Part shown: positions 1 to 61,265 of the stretch, one piece after another
Numbering within the stretch: the first letter of the stretch is position 1
Layout: each line of letters opens with the position of its first letter
Source of the DNA: a virus
Lineage: Duplodnaviria > Heunggongvirae > Uroviricota > Caudoviricetes
Length of the DNA: 64,000 nucleotides
Reading direction: 5' to 3' (one strand)
IMG/VR virus record: IMGVR_UViG_3300049597_000059
Program-made: the position numbers and the translations under genes
Notes under the pieces: model-generated
Told to the model about the DNA's origin: nothing
Database searches by the model: none
What the model saw: only the letters and a program-made list of their open reading frames with translations

Positions 1-113
1 GAGAATTACGTATAGGTTTCTTTTTCGTAAACATTAGTGTTCTGTTCTGGATAGATAACCAAGGAAATGATGCATAATATAGCATTAGGTGTTATAAATA
101 ACTAATTAAGTTA

Positions 114-144
114 TTTGTAGATGATTGGAAATCAATTACCTTTG
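114..144 (+). promoter_or_regulatory. Putative Bacteroidota-type sigma-A promoter (TTTG at 114-117, TACCTTTG at 137-144) upstream of first gene
   Basis: Exact TAnnTTTG -7 box 12 nt before ATG at 157; TTTG 19 nt upstream; AT-rich context. Confidence 0.45.
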
Positions 145-156
145 CCCTAATTAAAT

Positions 157-1148: not shown

Positions 1149-1386
1149 CCATGATGTCATATTAAGAAAGATTCCTTTATCAGTTTTACTGGACCACCTA
1201 ACAGAAATATACAATTCTGGTGTGGATTACATTGACATCCTTGGTGTTAATGGTATAGAACAGGATAAAATAGGGATTGCCTTCAACTCATCATATATGT
1301 CTCCTGAGGAAGACACAAATTTAGACCTAGACGAATCACAAATAAATATAAAATTGTCCGATGAGGACCTAAACCAATTATTATAA
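1138..1386 (+). CDS. hypothetical acidic protein
   Basis: ORF in tight operon, overlaps neighbours by a few nt. Confidence 0.35.
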   Translation: MENNHDVILRKIPLSVLLDHLTEIYNSGVDYIDILGVNGIEQDKIGIAFNSSYMSPEEDTNLDLDESQINIKLSDEDLNQLL

Positions 1387-1391
1387 ATACA

Positions 1392-6616: not shown

Positions 6617-6618
6617 TT

Positions 6619-7149: not shown

Positions 7150-7269
7150 AGTGAATTACATTAATGCTATATTATCGTGAATAATGAGCCTTATAGTGCA
7201 CTACCTCTTTGGTATTAATTTATAATAATATACTTTTACATCTGAAAACCAATAATAAATAAACTACAT

Positions 7270-10120: not shown

Positions 10121-10143
10121 TCTAACGATTAGGCATAACCTAC

Positions 10144-10188
10144 CGAGAAGAATTCCCCCCCACTACTCCATGTGGGGGAGTCTTCTCA
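10144..10188 (+). terminator. Nested hairpin after MCP gene (GAGAAGA-att-CCCCCCCAC-loop-GTGGGGGAG-TCTTCTC)
   Basis: Perfect 7-bp outer and about 8-bp GC-rich inner inverted repeats; no strong T-tract, so it could be an RNA stability or attenuator element rather than a full terminator. Confidence 0.45.
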
Positions 10189-10280
10189 CACAGATGGATG
10201 GATACAGATTACATGTCTGTATGGCACTCTCTTCGCTGAGAACCCATCTGCAAAAATAAACCAAACAAAAACAACTACAT

Positions 10281-13173: not shown

Positions 13174-13226
13174 ATGCCAGAGGGTGAGAGGATATTTCTC
13201 AAGTCCTCTGGCATATTTATTTTAAT
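13174..13226 (+). terminator. Rho-independent terminator (ATGCCAGAGG ... CCTCTGGCAT + ATTTATTTTAAT)
   Basis: Perfect 10-bp inverted repeat with 21-nt loop followed by a T-rich tract. Confidence 0.55.
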
Positions 13227-16275: not shown

Positions 16276-16307
16276 CCCCTGGCCTTTCTAGGCTGGGGGT
16301 TTTTGTT
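16276..16307 (+). terminator. Rho-independent terminator (CCCCTGGCC-tttcta-GGCTGGGGG + TTTTTGTTT), preceded by a second hairpin at 16248-16273
   Basis: 9-bp GC-rich stem (with G:U pairs) and T-tract; upstream 7-bp stem ACCTTGT/ACAAGGT. Confidence 0.6.
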
Positions 16308-16358
16308 TAAACTCTAATCAAATTGATTAATGTATATAATTAAATTGGTTAATAAAAT

Positions 16359-16390
16359 TTTGTAAATGTCAAAATTAGTTCGTACCTTTA
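16359..16390 (+). promoter_or_regulatory. Putative promoter (TTTG 16359-16362; TACCTTTA 16383-16390)
   Basis: Near-consensus Bacteroidota -33/-7 elements, 20-nt spacing, 28 nt upstream of ATG 16419 and just downstream of the terminator. Confidence 0.35.
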
Positions 16391-32104: not shown

Positions 32105-32145
32105 CTAATTCAATTATACCAGATTAACAAAAATCATTAGAACTC

Positions 32146-32176
32146 TTGGTATATATAATAATTTAAATTACATTTG
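32146..32176 (+). promoter_or_regulatory. Putative promoter (TTG 32146-32148; TACATTTG 32169-32176)
   Basis: Exact TAnnTTTG 14 nt before ATG 32191; -33-like TTG 20 nt upstream. Confidence 0.4.
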
Positions 32177-34902: not shown

Positions 34903-37900
34903 ATGGCAATTTTTGATAAAGAGCTTATTGACAATACTTCTAATAGAGATTATGGTAAACCTGAAATGGATCTGCGTTCTCCAGAGACCAGAAAGGTTGA
35001 TGTGAGTCTAGGAGGTTTTGAAGACTTTGCTATTGGAGGTCCTAGTAGATCTTCTGGTTTAACTATTGACCAATTATCAGACTTTTCACGTGTTCCTACA
35101 AATCAAAATACATTTAACTCTCCTGTACAAATGATTCCTAGAAGTGAACTTCTAGCCAATCAACGTTACAATATATATGAAAGAAATAGAGATTTAGAAA
35201 ACGTAGCTGGACTACAACAAAGTTGGGCAGATCAATTAGCTAATGGTGTTGTTAAATTTGCAGCAATTGGCGGTGGTACATTCCTTCAAAGTTTTGGTAC
35301 TATACCAAACACAGTATCTGCATTAAAGACAGGTAAGTTATCTGAGTTATCTGGAGGACCTGATGGTTATGAGTCTAAGGTGGGTGACTGGTTAACGAAC
35401 ATTGAAGATATATTTCCTAACTATTACACTAGACGAGAAAAAGAAAGTCCATTCTTAGCAGCCCTTCCTTTTGCTCCAGGATCTGCAAACTTCTGGGGAG
35501 ATAAGATTATTAAGAACCTAGGTTTTACAGCAGGTGCTATTGGTGGAGCAGTTGTTCAAGATTTAGCAATTGGTGCTATTACAGGAGGTATTGGTGAAAT
35601 TCCATTAGTTGCTGCTCAAATTGGTAAAGCTTCTTTGTATTTAAATAAATTATTTACAGGAACCAATCGCTTAGATGAAGTTCTTAATTTAGCTACTCAA
35701 CTTGGTAAAACAGAAAAGCAAATACTAAACATCAAACGTTTAGGTGAAGTTGCTGCTGCAACAAAGGTGACAGACGGTGCTAGATATGCACTAAACATAT
35801 ACGGTTCTGCTAGAACAGAAGCTGCTATTGAAGCTAGAGATGGTTACAAACAAGTTAGAGAAAACTTAATCAATCAATATAAGTTAGAAAACCTTGGTGA
35901 AGAACCTACAGGAGCAGATGCTAAACAGATAGAAGATTTAGCAACAAATGCTATGAATACCAGATTTGGTATTAACATGGCACTACTCACTGTGTCCAAT
36001 GCTGTACAGTTTGGTAACTTATTCAAATCATTTAGCAATGCTTCATCTAGTGGCATCTCTGGTTCATTAACTAGAGAGCTAGAAGATATTGGTAAGTTTG
36101 GATTGAAAGAAGGTAGTATAGATGTATTTGAATCTAAGGCTGCTAAAACTCTTCGTGGTAAAATTTGGGAATCTGTAAAACCTAAAGTAGCTAACATCTT
36201 TACAGAAGGTGTTTATGAAGAGGGTGGACAATTTGCTGCTGAAAGAGGTACGTTTGATTACTACACTAGAAAATACAAAAACCTTAACGACCCTAATAAT
36301 AAACAAAACTGGAACGAATTAAATGAGGTTATTAACTCTACTAATAAAGGGTTAGCTGATCAATACGGTTCAGAAGAGGGTCTTGAAAATATGTTTGTTG
36401 GTGCATTATCTGCTTTAATTAGCGGTGGCATCATGAGCAGAATTGATAGTGTTAAAGGTAAAGGTGCTGATGCTAGATTACAGTCTACCATCAATATGCT
36501 TAATAGATATGGTATCACTGGAATGTTACAAGATAACTACACTGATACACTAAACTCAGCTGCCATAGCTAAAGAAATGGATACAGCTGCTAAGTCTGGT
36601 AACATCTTTAAGTATAAGAACCTTAAGAAAGACATGTTCTTTAACTTTGTAAACTCACGCATTCCTTCTGGTATGCATGACGTTACACTTGAGCAATTGA
36701 ACATGTTAAAAGATTTATCCAAAGAAGAGTTTGAGAAAACCTTTGGAATGGACTTCAACACTTCTAATAAGAATACAGTTGATGCGTATGTAGACAATTT
36801 AATCTCAAATGCAAATAAGATTAAGTCTACAGTTGATTCATTAGACAGTACGTTTAAGAATCCTTTTGCAAAAATTACAGATCCTAAAACTCCTGAAGAG
36901 GCAGTTGCTGCTAATAATCATGATGTCTTTAATGAATGGAAGACTAACTTAGCATACTATGCTATGGTTGCTCCAGATGCAAATGATAGACTATCTTCTA
37001 TTTCTCAAACTGTTGCTGGTGTTAATCCATTGATTAACAATGACTTATTAGGCAAGCTTACCGATCCAACTAGCTTAAGAGAATTAAGTAGTAACTATGA
37101 AGAGAGAGCTAATCAGTTAAACAGAACAATCACTGAGTTTACAAGTCCTGAAGATAAGAAGGCTATAAAAGCACAGGTTAAGGCTTTGCGTACAAGTGCA
37201 GAGAGAATCAACCTTGCTATCAATAATAGAGATTTAGACATGAAGACGTTTAACTCTCTATTAAACTTTGAGTTAAATAACCTAGATAGTACCAAGGATG
37301 ATGTTGTGGGTATGGAGCGTGCTTCTGAGTTATATGGATATGGTGTTGATATTAACAAGCTTATTGGATTAAAGAGATCTGCTTCTAGCATACTTGATGA
37401 ATTAGCAAGTGAATCAGGTCTTGAGAAGTTCTTTAAAGAAGCTAGTGAAATAGCTTCTGAGGAACCACCAACCACTGTTCCTGGAGAAGAAGAAGCTCCA
37501 GCAGCTGAAGTTACTCCTGCTGTAGTTCCTCAATATACTAATGTAAAGGGTAAGAGAGAGAATTTAGAATTAAACAGAGAATACGAAGTTGCTAAGCTTA
37601 GACCTTCTAAGGTTAATAGATTAGCAGAAGACAGATGGCAAGTTATCTCTCCTGATGGAACTTTTGAAATCTATCCTACGAAGGAGAAAGCTCAAGAGAT
37701 TGCTAAAGACTTAGATGAAGAGTTTGCTAGCTTAGCTAAGGTGAAGATCGTTGCATTAAATGAAGATGGTACAGCTAAGGTGGAAGATAAAGATGGTAAC
37801 ATCTATAATATTGACACTAGAAAGCTATCAGGATTTAATAAGGTTGAAAGTGAACAAGAGAAGTTACAAAAGGTTGCAGATCAATTAGGTAGACAACAAC

Positions 37901-40900
37901 AAGAGGTTGAAAAGAAATCTGGTATTGTTGCTACAGGAAATCCAAGTTTGGAAACATTTGAAAAGGAAGACCCTAAGAAATCTGCAAATATATTATATAC
38001 ATCTACAACAGGTGCTTCTGAAACTTGGGAACAACTAGCTAAACCACATCAGGTTAGATCTAGACAGTTCTTAAACAATGTTAAAAACTTTGGTAACAGA
38101 GCTAACATGAAGATAATCCTTGTAACTCCTAATCAAGAAGAATCTTTAGGGTTAAAAGGATTAAGTGAGTTATCTGGATCTACAGATACTAGTGTAGAGA
38201 ATGGTTTAGTTGCTGCTGTATATGTAGTTCAGTCTAATGGTAAGAATTACTTTGTAGACAAAGATGGTAAACAACTTACTGAGGTGGGTCAACCTGTTGA
38301 TATGAATGTTGTAGTGTTCTCAACAATGCCTACTGCTGCATTATATAATAGTAAAGGAGATCCACGTTTTAGAAAGCAAGAAGAAGCTCAGGCAAAAGAA
38401 ATGTCTAGAGCATGGACTGTTAAAAGAGCTGAGTTATTTGCAGCTCCTGCAGGAACCTATACGATTTATGATTTTGGTGTATCTAAGGGTGTGCCTATTA
38501 CTGATAGAAATGAAAGAAAGTTTGTAGGAGATAATCTTGTTCCTCAGAAGAAGATTGCTACCCAAGAGAACCTAATTGTTATTTCTACCACTGGAACACT
38601 TGCTTACAATGGAGAGAACTTAAAGTTCCCTGTAGGTAGACCTGTGTTACAATACGGTGATACATTACAATACGTAGATAACAGAACCTTTACAAACGAT
38701 GAGGCTAAGAGCATCTTTGAAGCTATTAGACTTTTGTCAGAAGAAGTGCAGTCTCAGAATACTAAGGGTGAAACTATTGAACTTAATAGATTATATACAG
38801 ACTTCTTACAGAATGTTCTCTATTGGAGAAAAGGTAAGGATACTAAAGATAACCAAATACACATAGATGAAAGATCTATGGAGCTGTATATTGGTGGTGA
38901 TAAATATAACTTTGCTGACATTGCTAGTAATGAAGCTGCTATTGTTAGCAAGCTAAAAGGTACATTTAACAATGTTAACAATGAATCTTTAAAGAAGACT
39001 AGTGAACCATTCATTGAGTTATACTTTGAAAATGGATTCCTACAAAACAGAGAGTGGGCTAACTATCAATCATATTTACTATCTAATAAATATCCTGATG
39101 GTAAGAACCGTTCTATTACAGACACTCCTCTATCTACATATGTAAACAAACCTACAGACGCAGTTCCTTACAACTATGTTAGGAAGTATGCTATCCTTGA
39201 GGGATTAGATCTTCCTGTACAGCAGACTGCCCCTGTAGTAACTCCTGTGGCTGAAGCAGCACCATCTGCTGATAAGCTAGGTGAGTTCTTTGTAAATGGA
39301 ACAGAAAATACAATATCTCTAAAGGAACCTCTAGGTGAAACTAAGTTTACAGCAACAATTAACAGTGATGGTAATGTTGTTGCTGAAGTTATTTCTAATC
39401 CTAAGATACAAGCAATTGCTGCAACTGCTGAGAAAGCTAAGCCTTATTTAGATTTCTTAAAGAATACAATGGGTACTGATGGTAAACCGTTGTTTGATGC
39501 TACAAAGAGTGTAGAAGATTCTATTCTACAGTTTGTAGCATTAAACATTAGTGCTCGTTTGCAGGCTATAAAAAATGAACAAGCTGCTGCTGCTCCAGTT
39601 GTAACAACAGCTGCTACAGTTACACAAACCACTCCTTATGGTACAGAGGCTGCTCCTGCAGTGGTTACTTCTACAGAGTCTGTAGATAAAAAATCTGGTA
39701 TAAAAGGAACTTTAACAGGACAAGGAACTTCTTTAGAATTAGAAGTAATAGGAGATACTGGTAAAGAATTTTTACTTACTGTAGATAGAAAAGGTAATAT
39801 TAGTTTATTCTCTGAGAAACAATCTGACGGTAGTTATAAATCAGGGGAACCTGCTTCAAAAGAAGCAGTAGATAAATTATACAATAAGTATATATCTGAA
39901 AAAACAAGAACAGCTATAACTAATTGGTTAAATTCTTTTACTGGTTCTTGGGCTGCTCCAGAAACACAAGATGGTAAAAATTATGATAAAGCAGAAAAAG
40001 CACTTAATGCTGAACTAGCTGCTTTAGAAGGACAACCTACAGTTGCTGTACCTGCTTTAATATCTCCTGTTATACAGTCTAGTTTAGATATGCTTTCTAA
40101 AGCACAGGAATTATTAAATGCCCAATCTAAAAAGTTTGAAAAGTACATACCTGCTGTACAGAAGTATTTAGATACTAAAAAACAGCAGCTACAAGATCCA
40201 AAGCTTACAGTTGAACAACGTGAAAAAATAGCTAAGACTATTGAAATGGATATGAAGATACCAATTGTATCTTTAAATAATTTGGTTCTTGAATTTGATA
40301 CAGGTCGTGTAGAAAAAATATATATCAATAATCCTGAAACTAAAGAGAGTTATAATTTTACTGCTTTCTTTCAGGAAAATGGAGAAAGAAACTTTGAAAA
40401 CAATCCAAACTATGCTTTTAATCCAGATGAAAGATTAGGACAGGGAAGTAATTATGGTTATGATATTGTGTCTAAAAACTCTATCATACCTATAGAAGGT
40501 CTTAACTTGAGAGAAGCTGAAACTCTAAGACACATTTTATCTGGAGCTGATCCAAAGGCTACTCAGTATGCAGCTTCTGGTGATGAGAATCTTGGTCAAG
40601 GTCTTTTAATGGGTGTAATTAAACACTACTTTATAGAGAAGGCTGCTGGTAGAATGCAACGTGACTATTGGGATTATTTACAAGATCCTCGTAAAGAGAT
40701 GCGTGAGCAAATTGAAGCTATGGAAGCTCAACCAGCTACTGCTCCTAAGAACTTTGGTGCAACTAAACCTCCTTCAAACAGTGAGTATAGAAGAGTGGGT
40801 GTTGGTGGTGTAGAAAGAATCAATGATGCTGAGATAGAAATATTTAAAAGATGGGCTGCAGAAAATGTTCCAGGTATTCCATTTGAGATATTAGATAACA

Positions 40901-43900
40901 TCATCAGTACAAATGATGGTGAGAAGGCTTGGGGTGCATTTGAAAAAGGTGTGGCTAAGTTCTATAAGTCAGCTGCTAGAGGTACAGAATACCATGAGGT
41001 ATTTGAGGGTATATGGAAAGCTTTCCTTACAGAAGAACAAAGACAAGCTATATTAGATGAGTTTAAATCTAAGCCTGGTACATTTACAGATAGACAATCT
41101 GGTAAGAAGATTGCTTATGACCAAGCTACAGATAAGCAAGCTAAAGAAAGAATAGCTGATGACTTTGCTGATTTCAAGGTGGGTAAACTTCCTGCTAGAA
41201 GTATTGGTGAAAGAATCCTAAACTTCTTTAGAAACATTATTGAGTTTGTTAAACAGTTTGTAAACAAACCTACACAAAAGCAAGAGTTATTCAAAGCTAT
41301 TGAGGCAGGTAAGTTTAAAGAAATGACTGTTCCAGATAGTGTTAAGAATGACATGTCTGAGTACAGAGCTGTTGAAGGATTAAGTGAAAGACAAACACAT
41401 GAGTTTGTTCAGGATATTACAGCTAGGTCTTTCCAAATTATGTTTGGAACTAATACATCTTTGTACAATCCAGAAAAACTTACAGCTCCTGATATATTTA
41501 ACCAAGTTAAAAGTCAATATGCTGAAGAAGGCAAGTTGGAACTATTAGGTGAAAACGCTTGGAATCAATTAGTTAATAAAACAAAAGAGTTCTTACGTAC
41601 ATTTAAACTTGAGTTTGATGAGAATCAAAGTATTAGTATTAATGATGAGAACGTAAATAAAAATGATTACGCTCCTGAACCATTCTCTACAGATTGGAAG
41701 AAGAGTTCTTCGTTTGCTATCAAGTTACTTATTGGTACATTAACTGAAACCACACCAAGTAATCAAGAGAACGCAAGTAGTATGGCTCTCCCTGCTCAGA
41801 AACTATCTGATGTAATGGGATACAAGTTATTAAACTTTACTAGATCATTTGCTACAGTGCTAGATAAACTAGCTAATACAACAAAGGTTACTTCTGTTGT
41901 AGATAAGCTGATTGACCTTGCTAAATATGATAGCAACTATGTACGTCTATTCACTCGTGTGGGTGGTAATAGAAACAACATGGTTATTGACTTCTCTAAA
42001 TTTGAAGCACAGGATTGGAGATTGTTTGTTAACTTCTATCAAACATTCACCAAGCAAAAGCCTGATGCACTTATTCAATACGTTAGTGGAGATGAGGTGT
42101 ATACAGGATCTGCTAACCTATACACTGCTGCTAACTCAGTTAAAGAAGGTTGGATAGAGAACATGAAAGCTTTATCTAAAGTGGAAGGTTCTTTAATTAG
42201 CTATAACAGTGGTACAAAGACTTACAAAGTTGGAGACTTAACTAATGTGTCAAATAAGACTCCTGAAGAGATGATAACATTCCTAGGTAATCTAGGTATT
42301 GAATTCCCTATGGAAGTCTATTCAAAGTTAAAGACTGTTCAAAAGAATAAGTTTGCTAACGCTATTGGTGGATTGATTATTTCTCTTAGAGGAAAGAACG
42401 ATATATTAAGCGTTACAGGTAAGGTGTTAGACATCAATGGTCCATTGAGTCTCATCTCTGAACTATATGTAAAGGTGACCAACCCTAACATTGATGCTAC
42501 TTATTTTAACGTTGAGAACAGAAGAACAAACGCATTCTCAGAAAACAATGCTCCTTCTTTATTTGAGAACTTATTTAATGAAGCAAATACATTAGATGAG
42601 CTTCTTGAAGCTAGACCAGAGCTTAAAGATATTTTCTCTGCAAGTAGCCAAGTGTTAAAGAAGGGTGGATTATTCTTTGATGAAGATGGTAATAGAATTA
42701 GATCTATAAAGGTTAGTTACATCCAGGGAACTAAGCTTGTAGATGAGAATGATGGTACAGCTACTAGTAGATTAACTGAAGGAGAAAGATTTACACAAGA
42801 GTTTAACCAAAACCTTAATGGTAACTACTATGTACTTATTCCTGCAGATGGTTCTACAGAGTGGATGATGAACCTAGGTAACAACGTTCGTTTCTCAGCA
42901 TTTGAAAACGGAACAGCTTGGGGTAAGGTTTATACAACCTTTAAAGGATATTTAAAAGATGAGATCAACTTAGCACTAACTGCTGCTAGTAGAACTCAAC
43001 TTATGAATGTAGGAAACAAAGCTTCTGAGCTTCGCTTCTTCAATGATATTCTTTCTAAAGATACGTTAGCTAGCATCAATAACTTGATTGCTAAAGAGGC
43101 ATCTGAAGAAGAAATCAACGCATTCATTGAAGCTAATATAGGAGACATCAACAAGTCTATTAAGGATTACATTGATGGTGTATCTGATGTTACATTTAAA
43201 ACACTTGCTGCAAACGGAGAGATCTATGTAAACACTAAGGGTGAATACTCTTATCCTAAACTAGATGATGTATTTGCAAAAGCAGAGAAGTTTAATAAGT
43301 TTAAGCTTTCTGAGAAAAAGTTAAACAATATTATAAGTTTTGCTAATGCGAACTATATAATCAACAACATAGAATACCACAAAATCTTATTTGGTGATCC
43401 ATATCAATTTAAGATTAAAGATAACATCCTAGATGAAACTAAGCGTATCAAGTCTTTCTTATCTCCTAGAAGAACTACATTTGATAGCCCAGACTATAAT
43501 ACATTCCTTAATCAGGAACTAAATAAAGCTGGAGAGATTGAATTGAATGAGGGAGATCCAGGATTCCAGAAGTTCAAACCTTACACCAACACTATTACAT
43601 TGAAGGATGTAAAGGTGTTAGGTAGATTATTAGGTGAGACTAATGAGGCTGATGCTGCTTCTTATTTAATGGATGGTACATATAAAGAAGTTAAGTTAAA
43701 GAATGGTCAATGGTCTGATGAGGCTGAAGCTTGGCACCAATGGCAAATGGCTTACACTAGAAATAAAATGGCTGCCAAGGGTGATTACACTTATACTAAT
43801 GATTCATTAAGAGCTCAGGATGAGAAGACTATATCTAAACCAGAACCACTATATATTACAGAGGTGTTGAAACCTATTGTAACTGGTAACAAGTATGGTG

Positions 43901-46900
43901 CTACACAGTTTGATCTAGTGTTAGATAAGTTCTCTCAACTACCTCTATACTATAAGGCTATAGAAGGAACTAACCTAGAGAAGCTTTATGTTAAGATGAT
44001 GAAGGAAGATGTGGGCTATGTTATATTTGAGTCTGGCAGAAAGGTGGGCACTGAAACATTGTACAGTTTGTATAATGGAGATGGTAGCTTAAACGATGGT
44101 GGATTTGATAACAAGATACAAGTTCCTTGGAGTGCTTACGGTATTCAAGTGGAGAATAGCTATGAAGGATCTAAGCAACAAACTCGTGGTTCTCAGCCTA
44201 CTAAACTTGCTAGCTTAAACCTATTTAACAATGGTGTAGCTACAAGTCCTGAAGCTGCTAGTGAGTATGCTCGTAACAAAGAGATATTAGATAGGATGCA
44301 CGAGAATGGATATAACGAGCTATTAAGAAAGCTTGGTATTGAAGATCTTGGTGATGGGTTTAAACTTACAACTAATGTAGACGTATCTAAACTTCTTGAG
44401 TATGAAATGCTTAGAAGAGAGATGTCTGACAATGCTAAAGATACTGTACAGTTAGATGAGAATGGTCAATTTAGAATTCCATTTGAAGCATCTAATGCCT
44501 ACGTACAGATTAGAAATATTCTTTATTCAATGGTGGATAAAGCCCTTACATCTCCTAAGATGAATGGTGGTCCTAAGGTACAGGTTCCTGTAACAGGATG
44601 GGAGAATGCAAAAGCTGGTAGAAAGATTGCTCTTAAAACAAAAGATGGATTTAAAGAAATCTCTAAAGTAGAATATAATAACCTGTCTGAAGAAGATAAG
44701 AAGAAGGTAAGATTAACAGACGACACTCTTAAGTTCTATACTAAGGACCAACCTTATTGTGAGGTGTTATTACCACACTGGTTTAAGGTGAAGTTTGGTA
44801 AGAAGTTCCCTGATGATAAAGCTCTACTTAACTATCTAAATAGTACAGCAGAAGGACGTTCTATTCTTACGGGAGTTGGTTTCCGTATTCCTACACAGGA
44901 ATTAAGTAACATTGAGGTGTTTAGAGTGAAAGGTTTCTTACCACAATCTATGGGAGATACTATTGTTGTTCCTTCTGAAATTACTACCAAGGCTGGATCT
45001 GACTTTGATATAGATAAATTAAACACTTATTTAAAGGCTACTTATTTAGATAAGAATGGTGACATCCGTCTAGTTAAATACAAAGGTTCTGAAGAAGCTA
45101 CTAAAGAGTTCTACGCTAATGTATTTAATGAAATGCTTGATAAGAAAACTGTCAAGAAGAACGAAATATTGGATGCACTATACATAATGAACAATGATGC
45201 TAGTGATCCAGAGAACTTAGTAGACAGATATTCAGGCATATTAGATGCTATGATTTCTGAGCTAGGTGATGTAAACACTACAGAAGGTCTTGAAGAAAGA
45301 CTTGCTGCAGAGCTAGATAAGTTAAGTGATGCCACTCTACAAGCTGAGTTGAAAGATAAGTATGTTAGAGACATGTATAAGAAGTCTTTAGAGAATGAAT
45401 ACTACGATTCTTTAACAAAACTTCTTACACTTCCAGAGAACTTTGAGAGATTGATTTCTCCCATAGGAGATGCTGGTTTAAAAGACTTAGCTTCTAAATT
45501 AGATAAGTTAAGAGGGTATGATGAAAGCACTATCAAGAACAGGATGCTTGATAGAAACTATCTAACTAAACTTAGACACGCATTCGTAACTGCTAAGCGT
45601 TGGGTGGGTATTGCTGCTGTAAACATCACTAACCATTCTCTTACACAAAAGATTTCTGCATATATTGATCCTAGTAAGTTTGAGCTTGTTAATGAGGTTG
45701 ATAGAAAGATATTAGGTGATGGTAAGGTGGCTCTTCCACATAATACAGTGAATGTTAACGGTGAAGAACGTATATCCTTATCTTCAATTCTAGATAAGGC
45801 TGGTAAGTATATTTCTGGTAAACTATCTGGATATGCAACAGCGTTTGTGGATGTGGCTAAAGATCCATACATCCTTAAGATTATAGGTTCTGACTTAGCT
45901 GTAGGTACATTTATGTACTTAGAAAGAATTGGTGTTCCAATTGAAACAACAGCAATGTTTATGAACCAGCCTATTATTAAGGAGTATTTAACATACTTAG
46001 ATAACACAGGAGCTAGAGGTTTATTTAACCAAAAGAACATAGATGCTGTTAAGTCTAAGTTTGTTACAACTGGAACATTGATTAACTCTGCAGGTGTTAG
46101 CGTTGACACTCTTGAAGATAACATTTCAGAATACTATTCTAAAGGAGAACTTAGTGAACCTAAGAATGCTGAGCAACATGTTATACTAAACGAGTTCTTG
46201 AAATACGCTAAGATGGCTGAGTATCTATTTAACTTTGGTCAAGCGATTAACTATGACACTACCAAGTTTAGAAGTGGTGATGCATTGTTTAAGAAGGAAA
46301 CAAGAACAGAAGTTGCTGAAGATATTAACATTATCAGTTCTGTAAATGAGTTGTTAGATGCTTCATTTATAGGTAAGCAAGCTGAGCTTATTGCTTCTTC
46401 TATGGAAGCTATGGGTGAGATATTCAAGCTTGAGAAGGATGAGTTTAGAGTTATAACTAATTCAATATTAAAGTCTTTTGCAAAAGATCAATACTTAAGT
46501 GCGGATGACTATGATAGAATTGCTAACAAACTAAAAGCTTCTCTTCTAGACTATATCATCCAAACTAAGAGTGGTTTAAACGGTGAGATTAAAGCATTGT
46601 TAGTTGATGCAGGTACATCTGTAGCTTCTCAACTAGCTGAGGCTAAGCGTAACAACCCAGGACTTACAATCTTAAACGACCTACAAGTGGTTAGTTCTGA
46701 TAGAGTGGATGGTGCTAAGAGTATTAAACTGTTAGCTAATAACAAAGATGCTTACGATGAGAACTTGTATACAGGATATATGAGAGAGCTCAGAGATAAT
46801 CCATCTACTACAGAGCTGTACAACAACATAGTTAAATTGTCTATTCTCCAGGGTACATACCAAACAGGTATATCTATAAAGAACATTATTCCTATTGAAG

Positions 46901-48591
46901 ACTATAGCAAAATCATTGCTCCAATAATAGCTCCTCTTGTATCTAATGATTCATTACTATCATTTGCTCAAGGTGCGTTCCAAAGGAACAACTGGAAGGA
47001 TGACAAGATATTTGGTAAGGTGAAGCCTAAGTTCTTCTTAGCTCAGGAGACTCCTATTGCTGTGGATATATATGATAATGACATTTACCAATACTTCTCT
47101 CCAGCTTTCCCTAACATTAAGAACTTAGGAATCAAGTCTACAGACAGAAAGATATTGTTATTGAGTGAGCGTTATAATGCAGCTAGCTTGAAATATGATT
47201 TTGTTAAGGTTCCTAGAGTGGTTGAAGATAGTTTTACAGGAACAAGAGTTAATATGACTAATGGTGAAAATGTAACCAATTCAATGTTTGCAATTAAGAA
47301 ATCTAAAGGTGACCTATCTTTAAAAGACATATACGGTTATCAAAAGGTTAAATATGCTGACGGTAGTCCAGTGATTGTGTATGATGATAAAGGAGTGGGT
47401 AGCCACGTATATAAATTAGTTAATCTATATGGTGACGGTCAATTAGCTTCTGAATACTATGAGAACAATATTCCTTCTGTATTAAACAATGGCACTGTAA
47501 AGATTGCTAATGAGATTACGGATGAAGAAATAATTGCACATTATGGTGGGCAAACTCAACCTAAAGTTGTACCTTTACAATCTATGGCAATTGGAAAACC
47601 TGAGTTCAATAAACTTCCTGCTAAAATTGGAAAGCCAACAATGACCTATGCAGGTATTGGTTCAAGACAAACTCCTCCAGAAGTTCTTAAACAAATGACT
47701 GAGGTGGCTAAACAACTTGAATCAAAAGGATATACATTAAATACAGGCATCACCTTTGGTGGTAAAGAAGAAGGAGCTGATAAAGCTTTCTCTGATGGAG
47801 CTACAAATAAAAATCTATTCTCTCCTGAGAAACAAGGATCTAGAGCTAAAGAACAAGCTATTGCTAACGAGATGCATCCTAATCCATCAGCTTTAACACA
47901 AGGTGCTTTAAAACTAATGGCTAGAAATACCAATCAAATATTTGGTGATAATCTTGATACACCTGTAGACTTTGTATTGTTCTACGCTAAAGAAACTGCT
48001 AGTATTAGACCACAAGGTGGAACAGGTCAAGCTGTAGAAATGGCTAGATTAAAGGGTATTCCTACAATCAATATGGCTAATCCTAATTGGAGAGAAGAAT
48101 TAAATGCAGCGTTAACTCAACCAACAGCTGCTCAAAGTGAACAACCGTTGAGTGCGTATGTAACTGTGGAGCAATTAGAAGCTGATAAATCTTTCTTGAA
48201 TACAGCCATAGAGTTTGTTGATGAAATCTCTACAAACAAAGATGTTCCTGTAGCAATGAGAAACTTAAACAAAGGAGAGAAAATACAAATGGTTAAAGAC
48301 CTGATGCAGAAGAAGTTTGATGATAAAGCTTGGACCAGCCCTGTTACACAGGCAGATGGTAGTAAAGCTACAGCACTTCCTGCAGAACAGTTCAAATCAT
48401 TTAACGAGTTCTTAACGTTTGCTTTGTTACATGAGAAAGCACACGAGACTATATCAAAAGTTTCTGGCGAAACAATTGGTCAGTATGAAGATAGAATCAA
48501 TGCTGCAGCGTTAAACAATATGCCTAAACCTCCTGCTGAATTTGAAGGCGATTTAGAAGGAGCTGATAACCCTAATCCTTGTGGACAATAA
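34903..48591 (+). CDS. giant polyvalent virion protein (4562 aa) with RNA polymerase-like DxDxD catalytic motif, C-terminal SLOG/DprA-like Rossmann domain and HExxH motif
   Basis: One uninterrupted ORF; GSDFDIDKLN at 45001-45018 resembles the two-barrel RNAP metal-binding loop (NADFDGD); MTYAGIGSRQTP… Rossmann-like segment at 47641-48110; LLHEKAHE at 48430-48447; Ala/Pro/Val/Thr linkers between domains. Confidence 0.55.
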   Translation: MAIFDKELIDNTSNRDYGKPEMDLRSPETRKVDVSLGGFEDFAIGGPSRSSGLTIDQLSDFSRVPTNQNTFNSPVQMIPRSELLANQRYNIYERNRDLENVAGLQQSWADQLANGVVKFAAIGGGTFLQSFGTIPNTVSALKTGKLSELSGGPDGYESKVGDWLTNIEDIFPNYYTRREKESPFLAALPFAPGSANFWGDKIIKNLGFTAGAIGGAVVQDLAIGAITGGIGEIPLVAAQIGKASLYLNKLFTGTNRLDEVLNLATQLGKTEKQILNIKRLGEVAAATKVTDGARYALNIYGSARTEAAIEARDGYKQVRENLINQYKLENLGEEPTGADAKQIEDLATNAMNTRFGINMALLTVSNAVQFGNLFKSFSNASSSGISGSLTRELEDIGKFGLKEGSIDVFESKAAKTLRGKIWESVKPKVANIFTEGVYEEGGQFAAERGTFDYYTRKYKNLNDPNNKQNWNELNEVINSTNKGLADQYGSEEGLENMFVGALSALISGGIMSRIDSVKGKGADARLQSTINMLNRYGITGMLQDNYTDTLNSAAIAKEMDTAAKSGNIFKYKNLKKDMFFNFVNSRIPSGMHDVTLEQLNMLKDLSKEEFEKTFGMDFNTSNKNTVDAYVDNLISNANKIKSTVDSLDSTFKNPFAKITDPKTPEEAVAANNHDVFNEWKTNLAYYAMVAPDANDRLSSISQTVAGVNPLINNDLLGKLTDPTSLRELSSNYEERANQLNRTITEFTSPEDKKAIKAQVKALRTSAERINLAINNRDLDMKTFNSLLNFELNNLDSTKDDVVGMERASELYGYGVDINKLIGLKRSASSILDELASESGLEKFFKEASEIASEEPPTTVPGEEEAPAAEVTPAVVPQYTNVKGKRENLELNREYEVAKLRPSKVNRLAEDRWQVISPDGTFEIYPTKEKAQEIAKDLDEEFASLAKVKIVALNEDGTAKVEDKDGNIYNIDTRKLSGFNKVESEQEKLQKVADQLGRQQQEVEKKSGIVATGNPSLETFEKEDPKKSANILYTSTTGASETWEQLAKPHQVRSRQFLNNVKNFGNRANMKIILVTPNQEESLGLKGLSELSGSTDTSVENGLVAAVYVVQSNGKNYFVDKDGKQLTEVGQPVDMNVVVFSTMPTAALYNSKGDPRFRKQEEAQAKEMSRAWTVKRAELFAAPAGTYTIYDFGVSKGVPITDRNERKFVGDNLVPQKKIATQENLIVISTTGTLAYNGENLKFPVGRPVLQYGDTLQYVDNRTFTNDEAKSIFEAIRLLSEEVQSQNTKGETIELNRLYTDFLQNVLYWRKGKDTKDNQIHIDERSMELYIGGDKYNFADIASNEAAIVSKLKGTFNNVNNESLKKTSEPFIELYFENGFLQNREWANYQSYLLSNKYPDGKNRSITDTPLSTYVNKPTDAVPYNYVRKYAILEGLDLPVQQTAPVVTPVAEAAPSADKLGEFFVNGTENTISLKEPLGETKFTATINSDGNVVAEVISNPKIQAIAATAEKAKPYLDFLKNTMGTDGKPLFDATKSVEDSILQFVALNISARLQAIKNEQAAAAPVVTTAATVTQTTPYGTEAAPAVVTSTESVDKKSGIKGTLTGQGTSLELEVIGDTGKEFLLTVDRKGNISLFSEKQSDGSYKSGEPASKEAVDKLYNKYISEKTRTAITNWLNSFTGSWAAPETQDGKNYDKAEKALNAELAALEGQPTVAVPALISPVIQSSLDMLSKAQELLNAQSKKFEKYIPAVQKYLDTKKQQLQDPKLTVEQREKIAKTIEMDMKIPIVSLNNLVLEFDTGRVEKIYINNPETKESYNFTAFFQENGERNFENNPNYAFNPDERLGQGSNYGYDIVSKNSIIPIEGLNLREAETLRHILSGADPKATQYAASGDENLGQGLLMGVIKHYFIEKAAGRMQRDYWDYLQDPRKEMREQIEAMEAQPATAPKNFGATKPPSNSEYRRVGVGGVERINDAEIEIFKRWAAENVPGIPFEILDNIISTNDGEKAWGAFEKGVAKFYKSAARGTEYHEVFEGIWKAFLTEEQRQAILDEFKSKPGTFTDRQSGKKIAYDQATDKQAKERIADDFADFKVGKLPARSIGERILNFFRNIIEFVKQFVNKPTQKQELFKAIEAGKFKEMTVPDSVKNDMSEYRAVEGLSERQTHEFVQDITARSFQIMFGTNTSLYNPEKLTAPDIFNQVKSQYAEEGKLELLGENAWNQLVNKTKEFLRTFKLEFDENQSISINDENVNKNDYAPEPFSTDWKKSSSFAIKLLIGTLTETTPSNQENASSMALPAQKLSDVMGYKLLNFTRSFATVLDKLANTTKVTSVVDKLIDLAKYDSNYVRLFTRVGGNRNNMVIDFSKFEAQDWRLFVNFYQTFTKQKPDALIQYVSGDEVYTGSANLYTAANSVKEGWIENMKALSKVEGSLISYNSGTKTYKVGDLTNVSNKTPEEMITFLGNLGIEFPMEVYSKLKTVQKNKFANAIGGLIISLRGKNDILSVTGKVLDINGPLSLISELYVKVTNPNIDATYFNVENRRTNAFSENNAPSLFENLFNEANTLDELLEARPELKDIFSASSQVLKKGGLFFDEDGNRIRSIKVSYIQGTKLVDENDGTATSRLTEGERFTQEFNQNLNGNYYVLIPADGSTEWMMNLGNNVRFSAFENGTAWGKVYTTFKGYLKDEINLALTAASRTQLMNVGNKASELRFFNDILSKDTLASINNLIAKEASEEEINAFIEANIGDINKSIKDYIDGVSDVTFKTLAANGEIYVNTKGEYSYPKLDDVFAKAEKFNKFKLSEKKLNNIISFANANYIINNIEYHKILFGDPYQFKIKDNILDETKRIKSFLSPRRTTFDSPDYNTFLNQELNKAGEIELNEGDPGFQKFKPYTNTITLKDVKVLGRLLGETNEADAASYLMDGTYKEVKLKNGQWSDEAEAWHQWQMAYTRNKMAAKGDYTYTNDSLRAQDEKTISKPEPLYITEVLKPIVTGNKYGATQFDLVLDKFSQLPLYYKAIEGTNLEKLYVKMMKEDVGYVIFESGRKVGTETLYSLYNGDGSLNDGGFDNKIQVPWSAYGIQVENSYEGSKQQTRGSQPTKLASLNLFNNGVATSPEAASEYARNKEILDRMHENGYNELLRKLGIEDLGDGFKLTTNVDVSKLLEYEMLRREMSDNAKDTVQLDENGQFRIPFEASNAYVQIRNILYSMVDKALTSPKMNGGPKVQVPVTGWENAKAGRKIALKTKDGFKEISKVEYNNLSEEDKKKVRLTDDTLKFYTKDQPYCEVLLPHWFKVKFGKKFPDDKALLNYLNSTAEGRSILTGVGFRIPTQELSNIEVFRVKGFLPQSMGDTIVVPSEITTKAGSDFDIDKLNTYLKATYLDKNGDIRLVKYKGSEEATKEFYANVFNEMLDKKTVKKNEILDALYIMNNDASDPENLVDRYSGILDAMISELGDVNTTEGLEERLAAELDKLSDATLQAELKDKYVRDMYKKSLENEYYDSLTKLLTLPENFERLISPIGDAGLKDLASKLDKLRGYDESTIKNRMLDRNYLTKLRHAFVTAKRWVGIAAVNITNHSLTQKISAYIDPSKFELVNEVDRKILGDGKVALPHNTVNVNGEERISLSSILDKAGKYISGKLSGYATAFVDVAKDPYILKIIGSDLAVGTFMYLERIGVPIETTAMFMNQPIIKEYLTYLDNTGARGLFNQKNIDAVKSKFVTTGTLINSAGVSVDTLEDNISEYYSKGELSEPKNAEQHVILNEFLKYAKMAEYLFNFGQAINYDTTKFRSGDALFKKETRTEVAEDINIISSVNELLDASFIGKQAELIASSMEAMGEIFKLEKDEFRVITNSILKSFAKDQYLSADDYDRIANKLKASLLDYIIQTKSGLNGEIKALLVDAGTSVASQLAEAKRNNPGLTILNDLQVVSSDRVDGAKSIKLLANNKDAYDENLYTGYMRELRDNPSTTELYNNIVKLSILQGTYQTGISIKNIIPIEDYSKIIAPIIAPLVSNDSLLSFAQGAFQRNNWKDDKIFGKVKPKFFLAQETPIAVDIYDNDIYQYFSPAFPNIKNLGIKSTDRKILLLSERYNAASLKYDFVKVPRVVEDSFTGTRVNMTNGENVTNSMFAIKKSKGDLSLKDIYGYQKVKYADGSPVIVYDDKGVGSHVYKLVNLYGDGQLASEYYENNIPSVLNNGTVKIANEITDEEIIAHYGGQTQPKVVPLQSMAIGKPEFNKLPAKIGKPTMTYAGIGSRQTPPEVLKQMTEVAKQLESKGYTLNTGITFGGKEEGADKAFSDGATNKNLFSPEKQGSRAKEQAIANEMHPNPSALTQGALKLMARNTNQIFGDNLDTPVDFVLFYAKETASIRPQGGTGQAVEMARLKGIPTINMANPNWREELNAALTQPTAAQSEQPLSAYVTVEQLEADKSFLNTAIEFVDEISTNKDVPVAMRNLNKGEKIQMVKDLMQKKFDDKAWTSPVTQADGSKATALPAEQFKSFNEFLTFALLHEKAHETISKVSGETIGQYEDRINAAALNNMPKPPAEFEGDLEGADNPNPCGQ

Positions 48592-53549: not shown

Positions 53550-53626
53550 AATAGGGTGAATTATTGCTATATTATGTGGCATTCTTCATCGTAACTCATT
53601 GAAAATAAACTATATTCATTAACTTT

Positions 53627-53663
53627 GCGAATGTGTTCCATGCACATTCGCTTTGTTATATTT
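53627..53663 (+). terminator. Rho-independent terminator (GCGAATGTG-ttccatg-CACATTCGC + TTTGTTATATTT)
   Basis: Perfect 9-bp inverted repeat, 7-nt loop, T-rich tail, 78 nt after stop of the 1647-aa gene. Confidence 0.6.
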
Positions 53664-60353: not shown

Positions 60354-60829
60354 GTTGGGCAGGTATAGCAAGTAATCAATGTATATCTTTTAACAACCTA
60401 CAGGATGCTGTAACCACAGGGGTGTTTGCATTAAAAAATAGCATACCTGCAAGCACAGAGCAGATTACAAAAGCTGATGCTGATTATTATGTATATATTG
60501 ATACTACTTATGGTCCTTATGCATCAAAAGCTTCTAACCAATTAGTTGTAAAATCAAACTTACAGCCAGCCACTACAACTACCACTACAACATCAATTGT
60601 TTGTCAGCAAATTTTCCTATATCCTAATAATGTAAACCCATGTGACCATTTCAATACTTTAACATTGTTTGATACAGACAGTGCTTTATTCCCTACTAAA
60701 CTTTACGTATTAGGTGGTTGTGGAACAACTCCTGTAGCAGGTGGAAACTTATGGTATTCTCAGGGACCAGGGTCTGACAGTTATCAAGTGGACAACAGTG
60801 GTAATATTATTAGTATATTCCCTTGTTAA
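60350..60829 (+). CDS. small poly-Thr-linked two-domain protein
   Basis: 159 aa; C-domain (LFDTDSALFPTKLYVLGGCGTTPVAGGNLWY…VDNSGNIISIFPC) paralogous to the 15701 C-domain. Confidence 0.4.
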   Translation: MSWAGIASNQCISFNNLQDAVTTGVFALKNSIPASTEQITKADADYYVYIDTTYGPYASKASNQLVVKSNLQPATTTTTTTSIVCQQIFLYPNNVNPCDHFNTLTLFDTDSALFPTKLYVLGGCGTTPVAGGNLWYSQGPGSDSYQVDNSGNIISIFPC

Positions 60830-60875
60830 ATTTCAATAAAAATATTAATTTTACAAAAATAAAAAACAATAAACA

Positions 60876-61233: not shown

Positions 61234-61265
61234 TTTGGTTTTATTATAAGCAATGTATACCTTTG
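61234..61265 (+). promoter_or_regulatory. Putative Bacteroidota-type promoter (TTTG 61234-61237; TACCTTTG 61258-61265)
   Basis: Exact TAnnTTTG 16 nt before ATG 61282; TTTG 20 nt upstream; same 8-mer as the promoter at 137. Confidence 0.45.

What the first reader, a model, noticed from the sequence alone, without database searches (positions are those of the whole stretch)
114..144. Four promoters matching Bacteroidota sigma-A architecture, including a recurrent TACCTTTG -7 box
TTTG-N19-21-TAnnTTTG elements lie 12-28 nt upstream of gene starts at 157 (TACCTTTG), 16419 (TACCTTTA), 32191 (TACATTTG) and 61282 (TACCTTTG). Most starts have A-rich upstream context (aaaaATGG) with no GGAGG-like Shine-Dalgarno. 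Both are hallmarks of Bacteroidota gene expression. This partitions the window into at least four + strand transcription units and points to the host phylum. The poly-Thr linkers fit Flavobacteriia in particular.
Basis: partly seen in the sequence, partly recalled or inferred. Interest (0 to 1): 0.5.

Follow-up and report, generated by a model that had tools for sequence, protein, structure and literature searches.

The report
Bacteroidota-type host promoters in crAss-like phage

Summary
Two details differ: the -33 of the 32191 site is CTTG, and the -7 of the 16419 site ends in A.

Window-wide the strict pattern is not above chance (3 vs 1.46). It is concentrated in the 1,241 nt of + strand intergenic DNA. 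TTG-N19-21-TAnnTTTR occurs there 5 times against 0.14 expected (0 of 5000 shuffles), and never on the opposite strand.

Relatives keep the -33 and -7 boxes at fixed spacing while the spacers diverge (sites 1, 2 and 4, plus a missed site at 7208-7238).

The window is a crAss-like phage. It has a muzzle protein and a gp66-like virion RNA polymerase with a DFDID motif. In phi14:2, the studied crAss-like phage, the mapped middle promoters are used by host polymerase. I read them as CTTG-N20-TAnnTTTG, and they sit at partly syntenic positions.

None of 37 genes has a Shine-Dalgarno core.

Verdict: host sigma-A promoters of a known type, a new member of a known kind. A Bacteroidota host is likely. 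Flavobacteriia specifically is not supported: MAG co-binning points to Sediminibacterium and Cytophagales.

Side finds: a second invariant motif (TGCTATATTAT), operator-like palindromes, and a covarying RNA structure after the capsid gene.

The parts
114..144 (+). Promoter 1. -33 TTTG at 114-117, 19-nt spacer, -7 TACCTTTG at 137-144. Predicted TSS about 149-150. Drives w157 and the small genes, HU-like gene, TerL and portal block.
   Evidence: Read. It scores 10/10 against the consensus. In the 13 distinct relatives recovered (downstream protein 58-98% identical), all 13 have a TAnnTTTR element in the expected place, and TATTTG and TAyCTTTG are kept while the spacer varies.
7208..7238 (+). TTTG, 19-nt spacer, TACTTTTA, 31 nt before ATG 7270. 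The downstream gene lies between portal and major capsid protein, the position of phi14:2 g092.
   Evidence: CTCTTTG and TATACTTTTACA are near-invariant in 60 of 61 distinct relatives, with a variable spacer.
16359..16390 (+). Promoter 2. TTTG, 20-nt spacer, TACCTTTA, 28 nt before ATG 16419. The downstream block is exonuclease/phosphoesterase, then gp074-like, IHF-like and muzzle genes.
   Evidence: Read. 66 of 69 distinct relatives keep TAnCTTTA/G and TTTG at fixed spacing. It follows a terminator at 16276-16308. Its position is equivalent to phi14:2 P075.
32145..32176 (+). Promoter 3. CTTG (only TTG of the -33), 20-nt spacer, TACATTTG, 14 nt before ATG 32191. This gene heads the block that contains the virion RNA polymerase gene.
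   Evidence: Read. The whole 86-nt gap is 98-100% identical in relatives whose downstream coding DNA is 72-76% identical. That shows constraint but cannot resolve the individual boxes.
53598..53627 (+). ATTG, 18-nt spacer, TAACTTTG. It is followed by a hairpin plus T-run at about 53627-53664, and lies 60 nt before ATG 53688 (collagen-like tail fibre).
   Evidence: Two diverged relatives keep TCATTGAAAATAAA-N-TACCTTTG or TACTTTTG with the same 18-nt spacing.
60823..60853 (+). Weak candidate promoter. TTG, 20-nt spacer, TAATTTTA, 22 nt before ATG 60876.
   Evidence: Relatives have TAACTTTA, TAACTTTG or TATATTTG at the same place.
61234..61265 (+). Promoter 4. TTTG, 20-nt spacer, TACCTTTG, 16 nt before ATG 61282. 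The downstream operon holds an unknown gene, a sulfotransferase, an APS-kinase-like gene and a cytidylyltransferase-like gene.
   Evidence: Read; 10/10 match. 27 of 53 distinct relatives have TAnnTTTR 5-35 nt before the homologous ATG. Many of these have TTTGG 19-20 nt upstream despite unrelated spacers.
74..84 (-). Second conserved motif ('class B', TGCTATATTAT), copy 1, on the minus strand. It lies about 70 nt upstream of the predicted start of promoter 1.
   Evidence: One of three exact copies, all intergenic. Conserved as GCATAATATAGCA in relatives.
7165..7175 (+). Class B motif, copy 2. It lies 32 nt upstream of the -33 of the 7208 promoter.
   Evidence: TTAATGCTATATTAT is invariant in about 56 distinct relatives and keeps a fixed 32-nt distance to TTTG. 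The same context appears in independent IMG/VR hits.
53565..53575 (+). Class B motif, copy 3. It lies 22 nt upstream of the ATTG of the 53598 promoter.
   Evidence: Kept in relative L176.
16315..16351 (.). Two operator-like palindromes, TAATCAAATTGATTA and TAATTAAATTGGTTA, just upstream of the -33 of promoter 2. A similar ATAACTAATTAAGTTAT lies at 98-114 and abuts the -33 of promoter 1.
   Evidence: The same pair, TAATCAATTTAGTTA twice, precedes another TTGG-N19-TATCTTTG promoter 10 kb to the right of the window in L384.
16276..16308 (+). Intrinsic terminator: a GC-rich hairpin followed by TTTTTGTTT. It closes the unit before promoter 2.
13174..13223 (+). Terminator-like hairpin, ATGCCAGAGG...CCTCTGGCAT, followed by ATTTATTTT.
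   Evidence: Read.
10141..10260 (+). Conserved two-domain RNA structure between the capsid gene and w10281. It may be a processing, stability or attenuation element and has no promoter.
   Evidence: 19 of 32 predicted pairs show compensatory changes across 21 sequences (the window copy and 20 diverged relatives). No Rfam family matches.
34903..48591 (+). Giant 4562-aa protein containing the virion RNA polymerase module (DFDID at residue 3367). Given as context: it is the likely early-gene polymerase.
   Evidence: BLASTP to phi14:2 gp66 gives 1e-28; the DFDID motif is present.

Best explanation
The sites are promoters read by the host's RNA polymerase carrying the Bacteroidota-type primary sigma factor. 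That factor contacts a -33 TTTG and a -7 TAnnTTTG set 19-21 bp apart (here mostly TAyCTTTG/A).

They drive the middle and late (virion and accessory) genes of an uncultured freshwater crAss-like phage. Transcription should start 4-5 nt after the -7 box, at about 149, 7243, 16395, 32181, 53632 and 61270. This gives leaders of 7-27 nt, and about 56 nt with a 5' hairpin for the tail-fibre gene.

Translation then starts without Shine-Dalgarno pairing, on A-rich leaders.

Early genes, outside this arm, are probably transcribed by the injected virion RNA polymerase (the gp66-like module of w34903).

**Shown:** sequence, placement, enrichment, conservation, and homology and synteny with phi14:2.
**Inferred:** which polymerase uses the sites, the start sites, and the timing.
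For: 1. Five hits to the composite motif lie in 1,241 nt of sense-strand gaps, against 0.14 expected (0 of 5000 shuffles) and 0 on the antisense strand. Six gaps hold a 9-10 of 10 match to the consensus, whereas the best sigma-70 matches are at most 9 of 12, which is noise level.
2. Phylogenetic footprints: the boxes and their spacing are kept while spacers diverge, in relatives whose downstream protein is down to 54-63% identical depending on the site.
3. None of the -7 boxes has G at the two N positions. This fits the refined TAHHTTTG consensus of Flavobacterium johnsoniae (PMC6847099).
4. The phage is crAss-like: crAss_MUZ domain, crAss-type TerL and portal PHROGs, and a gp66-like DFDID polymerase.
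5. In phi14:2, middle and late transcription is rifampicin-sensitive, meaning host RNAP (bioRxiv 10.1101/2020.03.07.982082). Its mapped promoters P070 and P075 read CTTG-N20-TATATTTG and CTTG-N20-TACTTTTG. P108 and P110, and sites before g092 and g093, also fit.
6. Positions match. One site is at the start of the arm. One is before the g092-position gene. One is before the phosphoesterase/gp074/IHF block.
7. Four more such elements lie in intergenic DNA within 10 kb to the right of the window. Each is oriented with its gene, including a divergent pair.
8. Controls. The composite motif is enriched in phi14:2 (5 vs 0.43) but not in T4 (0 vs 0.52). The -7 box alone is enriched in Flavobacterium phage 11b (9 sense, 0 antisense, vs 1.5 expected) but not in T4.
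9. None of 37 genes has a Shine-Dalgarno core.
10. Bacteroidota MAGs hold this phage.
Against: - There are no transcript data for this phage, so no start site is mapped.
- Site 3 has no informative relatives.
- The composite pattern was relaxed after seeing the data.
- The closest isolate by terminase (40% aa) is recorded with a cyanobacterial host yet is rich in the same motif. Either that host record is wrong or the motif is less phylum-specific than assumed.
- E. coli sigma-70 holoenzyme transcribed the phi14:2 promoters in vitro, so cross-recognition exists.
- Flavobacterium phage 11b is not enriched for the full -33/-7 composite.
- MAG co-binning also includes four non-Bacteroidota bins.
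Confidence: 0.8

Rival explanations
1. The sites are promoters for a sigma-70-like holoenzyme of a host outside Bacteroidota, for example a cyanobacterium. Under this reading TTGnnn-N16-17-TAnnnT is what is recognised, and the resemblance to the Bacteroidota consensus is incidental.
For: The closest cultured relative is deposited as Leptolyngbya phage Lbo-JY46, and it has more than 12 copies of TTTGG-N-TATCTTTG. E. coli sigma-70 RNAP transcribes phi14:2 promoters of this form in vitro. Some MAG bins holding the phage are Actinomycetota or Firmicutes.
Against: Positions that sigma-70 does not read (T-8, T-6, G/A-5 of the -7 box) are among the most conserved columns. Fits to TTGACA/TATAAT are no better than noise. 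All other cultured relatives by terminase infect Bacteroidota. The Lbo-JY46 host record could not be checked, because no paper was found.
Confidence: 0.07
2. The motif is read by a phage-specified enzyme or factor rather than by unmodified host sigma-A holoenzyme. Candidates are the virion RNA polymerase, or host core polymerase with a phage sigma or activator. The motif would then track the phage lineage and not the host.
For: The phage encodes a gp66-like polymerase. The motif is shared across a phage lineage, including a member with a different recorded host. Fixed-distance partner motifs (class B and the palindromes) suggest that extra factors act at these promoters.
Against: In phi14:2 the same promoter class is rifampicin-sensitive, and gp66-made early transcripts have no common upstream motif. 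The -7 box is also enriched in the unrelated Flavobacterium phage 11b. The motif equals the cellular consensus defined on Bacteroides and Flavobacterium genes.
Confidence: 0.08
3. The sites are not promoters. They would be AT-rich intergenic sequence conserved for other reasons, such as translation leaders, DNA-binding protein sites or recombination blocks, that happen to match a short degenerate pattern.
For: Genome-wide counts of the pattern are at chance. The site 3 gap is conserved as a whole block. Other conserved non-promoter elements do exist in these gaps.
Against: None of 5000 composition-matched shuffles reaches the observed count. The hits are strand-specific. The two boxes are conserved selectively, with free spacers and fixed spacing, at four independent loci. 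The motif recurs before non-homologous genes and before genes on either strand.
Confidence: 0.03

Closest known systems
Bacteroidota primary-sigma (sigma-ABfr) promoters: -33 TTTG / -7 TAnnTTTG. Bayley 2000, Vingadassalom 2005 and Chen 2007 are cited from my own knowledge. The refinement to TAHHTTTG is from Baez et al. 2019, PMC6847099.
   Same: The two boxes are the same. The spacing is 19-20 bp. There is no G at the N positions. The sites lie shortly upstream of genes that lack Shine-Dalgarno sequences and have A-rich leaders, including A at -3.
   Different: Two sites end in A instead of the nearly invariant G-5. One has only TTG at -33 and one has an 18-bp spacer. Several predicted leaders are shorter (7-12 nt) than the 33-nt average reported for F. 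johnsoniae. The -33 box is better conserved here than in F. johnsoniae cellular promoters.
Middle promoters of Cellulophaga crAss-like phage phi14:2 (Drobysheva et al., bioRxiv 10.1101/2020.03.07.982082; published in Nature 2021)
   Same: The sequence form is the same (CTTG-N20-TAnnTTTG, read). The genome arm is the same. The positions are comparable: the head of the arm, before the g092-position gene, and before the phosphoesterase/gp074/IHF block. The ATG follows very closely. The companion virion RNA polymerase with DFDID is also present.
   Different: The proteins are only about 24-32% identical, and the phosphoesterase pair is not detectably homologous by BLAST. This family has additional partner motifs, class B and the palindromes, that phi14:2 lacks. 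There is no experimental mapping here.
Sigma-70 -35/-10 promoters (TTGACA-N17-TATAAT)
   Same: The layout is two boxes with similar overall spacing, and TA opens the downstream box. Some cross-recognition by E. coli holoenzyme was reported for phi14:2.
   Different: The fits to both hexamers are poor. The conserved TTTG tail of the -7 box is not part of a -10 element.

Membership tests
Bacteroidota sigma-A (-33/-7) promoter | A -7 element TAnnTTTG (TAHHTTTG) | tested here: met
   Exact at 137-144, 32169-32176, 53620-53627 and 61258-61265. The last base is A at 16383-16390 and 7231-7238. No site has G at the N positions.
Bacteroidota sigma-A (-33/-7) promoter | A -33 element TTTG placed 19-21 bp upstream of the -7 element | tested here: met
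   TTTG at a spacing of 19 or 20 for four sites. CTTG at 20 for site 3. ATTG at 18 for 53598.
Bacteroidota sigma-A (-33/-7) promoter | Non-random placement: intergenic, sense strand, shortly upstream of a gene | tested here: met
   5 hits against 0.14 expected in the gaps, 0 antisense, all 12-31 nt from an ATG.
Bacteroidota sigma-A (-33/-7) promoter | Selective conservation of both boxes and their spacing | tested here: met
   Met for sites 1, 2 and 4 and for 7208. Inconclusive for site 3, where the whole gap is invariant.
Bacteroidota sigma-A (-33/-7) promoter | Transcription start 4-5 nt downstream of the -7 element | not testable with these tools
   No transcript data are available.
Bacteroidota sigma-A (-33/-7) promoter | Use by host RNAP with the sigma-ABfr-type factor; host belongs to Bacteroidota | tested here: inconclusive
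   Indirect support only. Five of nine MAGs holding the phage are Bacteroidota, and cultured relatives mostly infect Bacteroidota. The nearest one, however, is labelled Leptolyngbya.
phi14:2-type crAss-like middle/late promoter | Same motif located in the virion/gene-expression arm of a crAss-like genome that encodes a DFDID virion RNAP | tested here: met
phi14:2-type crAss-like middle/late promoter | Rifampicin-sensitive, temporally middle or late transcription | not testable with these tools
   This needs an infection experiment.
Sigma-70 -35/-10 promoter | A good match to TTGACA-N16-18-TATAAT at the conserved positions | tested here: not met
   The best match in any gap is 9 of 12 and does not coincide with the conserved boxes.

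The most novel reading that the evidence does not exclude
The host-type promoters may be only the base layer of a phage-specific regulatory code.

- An invariant 11-15 nt motif, TTAATGCTATATTAT, sits at a fixed distance upstream of some of them: the capsid-operon promoter, the tail-fibre promoter and the arm-head promoter.
- Paired palindromes, TAAyCAAnTTrGTTA, abut others.
- These would be binding sites for phage proteins that sort promoters into temporal classes. The window encodes two HU/IHF-like proteins, w512 and w18394.
- Alternatively, the TGnTATATT-like motif could itself be a promoter for a different polymerase form. That would be the first sequence signal proposed for non-sigma-A transcription in a crAss-like phage.
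Probability: 0.2. Interest if true: 0.6.

Novelty: new member of a known kind. Interest (0 to 1): 0.3.

Why it matters
These promoters give a culture-independent clue to the host of a very abundant, uncultured freshwater crAss-like phage lineage, which has hundreds of IMG/VR contigs. They also give a first map of its transcription units.

The result extends the phi14:2 scheme to a distant branch: a virion polymerase for early genes and host sigma-A promoters for middle and late genes.

The same test flags a GenBank 'Leptolyngbya phage' whose promoters look Bacteroidota-type, so its host assignment deserves re-checking.

Nothing here changes what is known about how such promoters work.

Tried and rejected
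- **Megablast of window 1-20000 against phage genomes:** no match, so identification had to go through proteins.
- **tRNA scan:** none found, so no host clue from tRNAs.
- **Rfam:** nothing at gathering threshold. In the structured gap there was only a meaningless snoR9 hit at E = 0.57.
- **Site 3 relatives:** two separate locus searches returned only relatives with an almost identical gap. The individual boxes could therefore not be footprinted.
- **Exact 14-mer scan of IMG/VR for the class B motif:** 96 of 120 hits were unrelated chance matches. The family hits showed only the two contexts already known.
- **Prochlorococcus phage P-SSM2 as a cyanophage control:** only about 600-770 nt of upstream DNA were available, which is underpowered.
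- **Flavobacterium phage 11b as a non-crAss positive control:** the full -33/-7 composite was not enriched (1 vs 0.49). The -7 box alone was.
- **Literature searches:** nothing for Lbo-JY46, and nothing for freshwater crAss-like phages with Sediminibacterium.
- **Class B as an N4-type hairpin promoter:** considered and dropped, because the motif has no self-complementarity on reading.
- **Class B in other phages:** absent from phi14:2 and Lbo-JY46.
- **A leftward gene driven by class B:** left open. The region left of the window is mostly non-coding, with only a 31-codon ORF. A gene caller instead places an 89-aa + strand ORF there.

Full report
**1. What is in the sequence**

- Site 1: TTTG 114-117, 19-nt spacer, TACCTTTG 137-144, ATG 157.
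- Site 2: TTTG 16359-16362, 20-nt spacer, TACCTTTA 16383-16390, ATG 16419.
- Site 3: CTTG 32145-32148, 20-nt spacer, TACATTTG 32169-32176, ATG 32191.
- Site 4: TTTG 61234-61237, 20-nt spacer, TACCTTTG 61258-61265, ATG 61282.

The distances to the start codons are 12, 28, 14 and 16 nt, as stated. There are two corrections. Site 3 has only TTG of the -33 box.

**2. Is it more than chance?**

Across the whole window and both strands it is not. The strict pattern occurs 3 times against 1.46 expected, and TAnnTTTG occurs 87 times against 78.

The signal is in placement. Every long ORF is on the + strand, and only 1,241 nt lie in + strand gaps of at least 15 nt.
- Of 11 + strand matches to TTG-N19-21-TAnnTTTR, five lie in those gaps.
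- Dinucleotide-preserving shuffles of the gaps give a mean of 0.14, and none of 5000 reaches five.
- The opposite strand of the gaps has none.
- Six gaps contain a 9-10 of 10 match to TTTG/TAnnTTTG. Their best sigma-70 matches are at most 9 of 12, and those do not coincide with the conserved boxes.

- A strong site at 7208-7238 (TTTG-N19-TACTTTTA, 31 nt before ATG 7270).
- A probable one at 53598-53627 (ATTG-N18-TAACTTTG).
- A weak one at 60823-60853.

**3. What the window is**

It is a distant crAss-like phage.
- It has crAss-type terminase, portal and capsid PHROGs and a crAss muzzle domain in w19777.
- It has homologues of phi14:2 gp094, gp093, gp074, gp073 (IHF-like) and gp071.
- It has a homologue of the virion RNA polymerase gp66, inside the 4562-aa w34903, with the DFDID motif at residue 3367.
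- No phage genome matches at the DNA level.
- By terminase, the nearest isolates are 'Leptolyngbya phage Lbo-JY46' (40%), then Cellulophaga phages phi4:1 and phi17:2 (33%), then gut crAss-like phages.
- Hundreds of IMG/VR contigs belong to the same lineage, with genomes of about 105-117 kb.

**4. Conservation**

I extracted the DNA upstream of homologous genes from these relatives.
- Before the exonuclease gene, 66 of 69 distinct sequences keep TTTG and TAnCTTTA/G at fixed spacing while the spacer changes.
- Before w157, all 13 distinct sequences keep TATTTG and TAyCTTTG.
- Before w7270, 60 of 61 keep CTCTTTG and TATACTTTTACA.
- Before w61282, the neighbourhood is often rearranged. Even so, 27 of 53 distinct relatives have TAnnTTTR 5-35 nt before the ATG. 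Many of these have TTTGG 19-20 nt upstream and completely unrelated spacers.
- Site 3 could not be resolved. Its 86-nt gap is 98-100% identical even where the downstream coding DNA is 72-76% identical.
- Ten kilobases to the right of the window, in a near-identical contig, there are four more intergenic copies. These include another TACCTTTG and a back-to-back pair serving divergent genes.

**5. Comparison with what is known**

Baez et al. (PMC6847099) summarise the Bacteroidota consensus as -33 TTTG / -7 TAnnTTTG. They refine the -7 box to TAHHTTTG, place the start 4-5 nt downstream, and report SD-less, A-rich leaders with A at -3.
- The window fits. There is no G at the N positions. None of 37 genes has an SD core, against a 12.4% background. 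A makes up 62-76% at -14..-11 and 65% at -3.

The closest precedent is phi14:2. Drobysheva et al. showed three things.
- Early genes are made by the injected gp66 polymerase, and those transcripts have no common upstream motif.
- Middle and late genes are rifampicin-sensitive, so they are made by host RNAP.
- Middle promoters, mapped by primer extension, have -35/-10-like blocks.

Reading the phi14:2 genome, P070 is aaaaaaaCTTG-N20-TATATTTG and P075 is aaaaCTTG-N20-TACTTTTG. P108 and P110, and sites before g092 and g093, match the same pattern.

The window's sites occupy comparable places. One is at the head of the arm. One is before the gene between portal and capsid. One is before the phosphoesterase/gp074/IHF block.

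**6. Controls**

I ran the same scan with my own ORF caller on other phage genomes.
- The composite motif is enriched in phi14:2 (5 vs 0.43) and absent from the first 50 kb of T4 (0 vs 0.52).
- The -7 box alone is enriched in the unrelated Flavobacterium phage 11b (9 sense, 0 antisense, 1.5 expected) but not in T4.
- Phage 11b is not enriched for the full composite.
- A cyanophage control (P-SSM2) had too little intergenic DNA to be informative.
- Unexpectedly, Lbo-JY46 is strongly enriched (9 vs 0.89). It carries more than a dozen copies of aTTTGGtagtttca-N-TATCTTTGta, several of them before tRNA genes.

**7. Host**

GTDB genomes holding this phage's capsid gene include the following.
- Bacteroidota: two Sediminibacterium MAGs (one with a 111,986-bp contig), a Cytophagales MAG, an 'uncultured Bacteroidetes' MAG and a Kapaibacterium MAG.
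- Others: Aquiluna, Tissierellales, Gudongella and Clostridium bins.

This is co-binning and not proof. It fits Bacteroidota but gives no support for Flavobacteriia. The Lbo-JY46 result cuts both ways: either its host record is wrong, or the motif is less diagnostic than assumed.

**8. Mechanism and verdict**

The best explanation (confidence 0.8) is that host RNAP with the Bacteroidota-type primary sigma factor initiates at these sites and transcribes the middle and late arm. The virion polymerase would handle early genes elsewhere in the genome.

Clear terminators precede only some promoters (13174-13223 and 16276-16308). The promoters therefore probably act partly as internal boosters and not as strict unit boundaries.

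The rivals are a sigma-70-type host, a phage-specified polymerase or factor, and a non-promoter reading. Together they get about 0.2. This is a new member of a known kind and of modest interest.

**9. Other features seen**

- A second motif, TGCTATATTAT, occurs exactly three times, always intergenic. It is invariant in relatives at a fixed 32 nt from the -33 of the 7208 promoter and is absent from phi14:2 and Lbo-JY46.
- Paired palindromes, TAAyCAAnTTrGTTA, sit directly upstream of promoters 1 and 2 and of a third promoter outside the window.
- The capsid-w10281 gap holds a two-domain structure with 19 of 32 pairs showing compensatory changes and no Rfam match.

These are the parts that might repay further work.

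Noticed in passing
window 74-84 (-), 7165-7175 (+), 53565-53575 (+): The motif TGCTATATTAT, which resembles an extended -10 (TGnTATATT), occurs exactly three times and always in intergenic DNA. It lies 62-73 nt upstream of predicted starts of the host-type promoters. In about 56 relatives it is invariant as TTAATGCTATATTAT, at a fixed 32 nt from the -33 box. It is absent from phi14:2 and Lbo-JY46. It could be a factor-binding site or a second promoter class.
   Followed up: partly
window 10141-10260 (+): The gap between the capsid gene and w10281 contains a conserved two-domain RNA structure. Domain 1 is the GAGAAGA/TCTTCTC stem enclosing CCCCCCAC/GTGGGGG. Domain 2 is closed by CAGATGG/CCATCTG and holds two inner hairpins. 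19 of 32 pairs show compensatory changes across 21 sequences, and no Rfam family matches.
   Followed up: partly
window 98-114, 16315-16329, 16337-16351; L384 11962-12000: Operator-like palindromes, TAAyCAAnTTrGTTA, often occur as a pair 22-24 bp apart, directly upstream of the -33 box of three different promoters. They suggest a shared dimeric regulator.
   Followed up: partly
PP438436 (L237-L239), e.g. 16030, 38328, 47109, 118473-124442: The GenBank record 'Leptolyngbya phage Lbo-JY46' is the closest isolate by terminase. It carries more than a dozen Bacteroidota-type promoters (TTTGG-N-TATCTTTG), several before tRNA genes: 9 composite hits against 0.89 expected. Either its cyanobacterial host assignment is doubtful or the motif is not strictly phylum-specific.
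   Followed up: partly
window 7243-7269 and 10253-10280: The leaders of w7270 and w10281 share a conserved sequence, AAACCAA-N10-12-AACTACATATG, which is kept across relatives. It may be a translation-initiation or stability element for highly expressed structural genes.
   Followed up: no
window 34903-48591; 25427-28792: The 4562-aa w34903 contains the gp66-like virion RNA polymerase module (DFDID at residue 3367). That is about twice the length of phi14:2 gp66 and suggests a fusion with neighbouring cargo proteins. Separately, w25427 contains a DFDGD pentapeptide at residue 462. This is unlikely by chance but was not examined.
   Followed up: partly
window 61282-63782 and L384 4684-8073: The operon behind promoter 4 encodes a sulfotransferase, an APS-kinase-like protein and a cytidylyltransferase-like protein. 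A convergent 1129-aa glycosyltransferase follows. This looks like an auxiliary glycan or sulfation module.
   Followed up: no
window 53688-60353: The 2221-aa tail-fibre-like protein has about 10 collagen-repeat stretches and a C-terminal S74 intramolecular chaperone. Its GC content is 41-43%, against about 35% for the rest of the window.
   Followed up: no
window 512-862 and 18394-18870: Two HU/IHF-family DNA-binding proteins are encoded. w512 hits Pfam Bac_DNA_binding in the gene table, and w18394 is homologous to phi14:2 gp073. Both are candidate binders of the conserved upstream motifs.
   Followed up: no
L082 700-1600 / L382 1-520 (left of window position 1): About 800 nt to the left of the window are mostly non-coding. 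This stretch holds another TTG-N21-TACCTTTG element and GC-rich hairpin-like segments. phi14:2 has highly transcribed non-coding regions, so this could be an RNA gene or an origin or terminus region.
   Followed up: no
window proteins w12007, w15293, w15701, w19777, w60350, w60876: Long Thr/Ser tracts (up to 26 residues) occur near the C-termini or in linkers of six virion-arm proteins.
   Followed up: no
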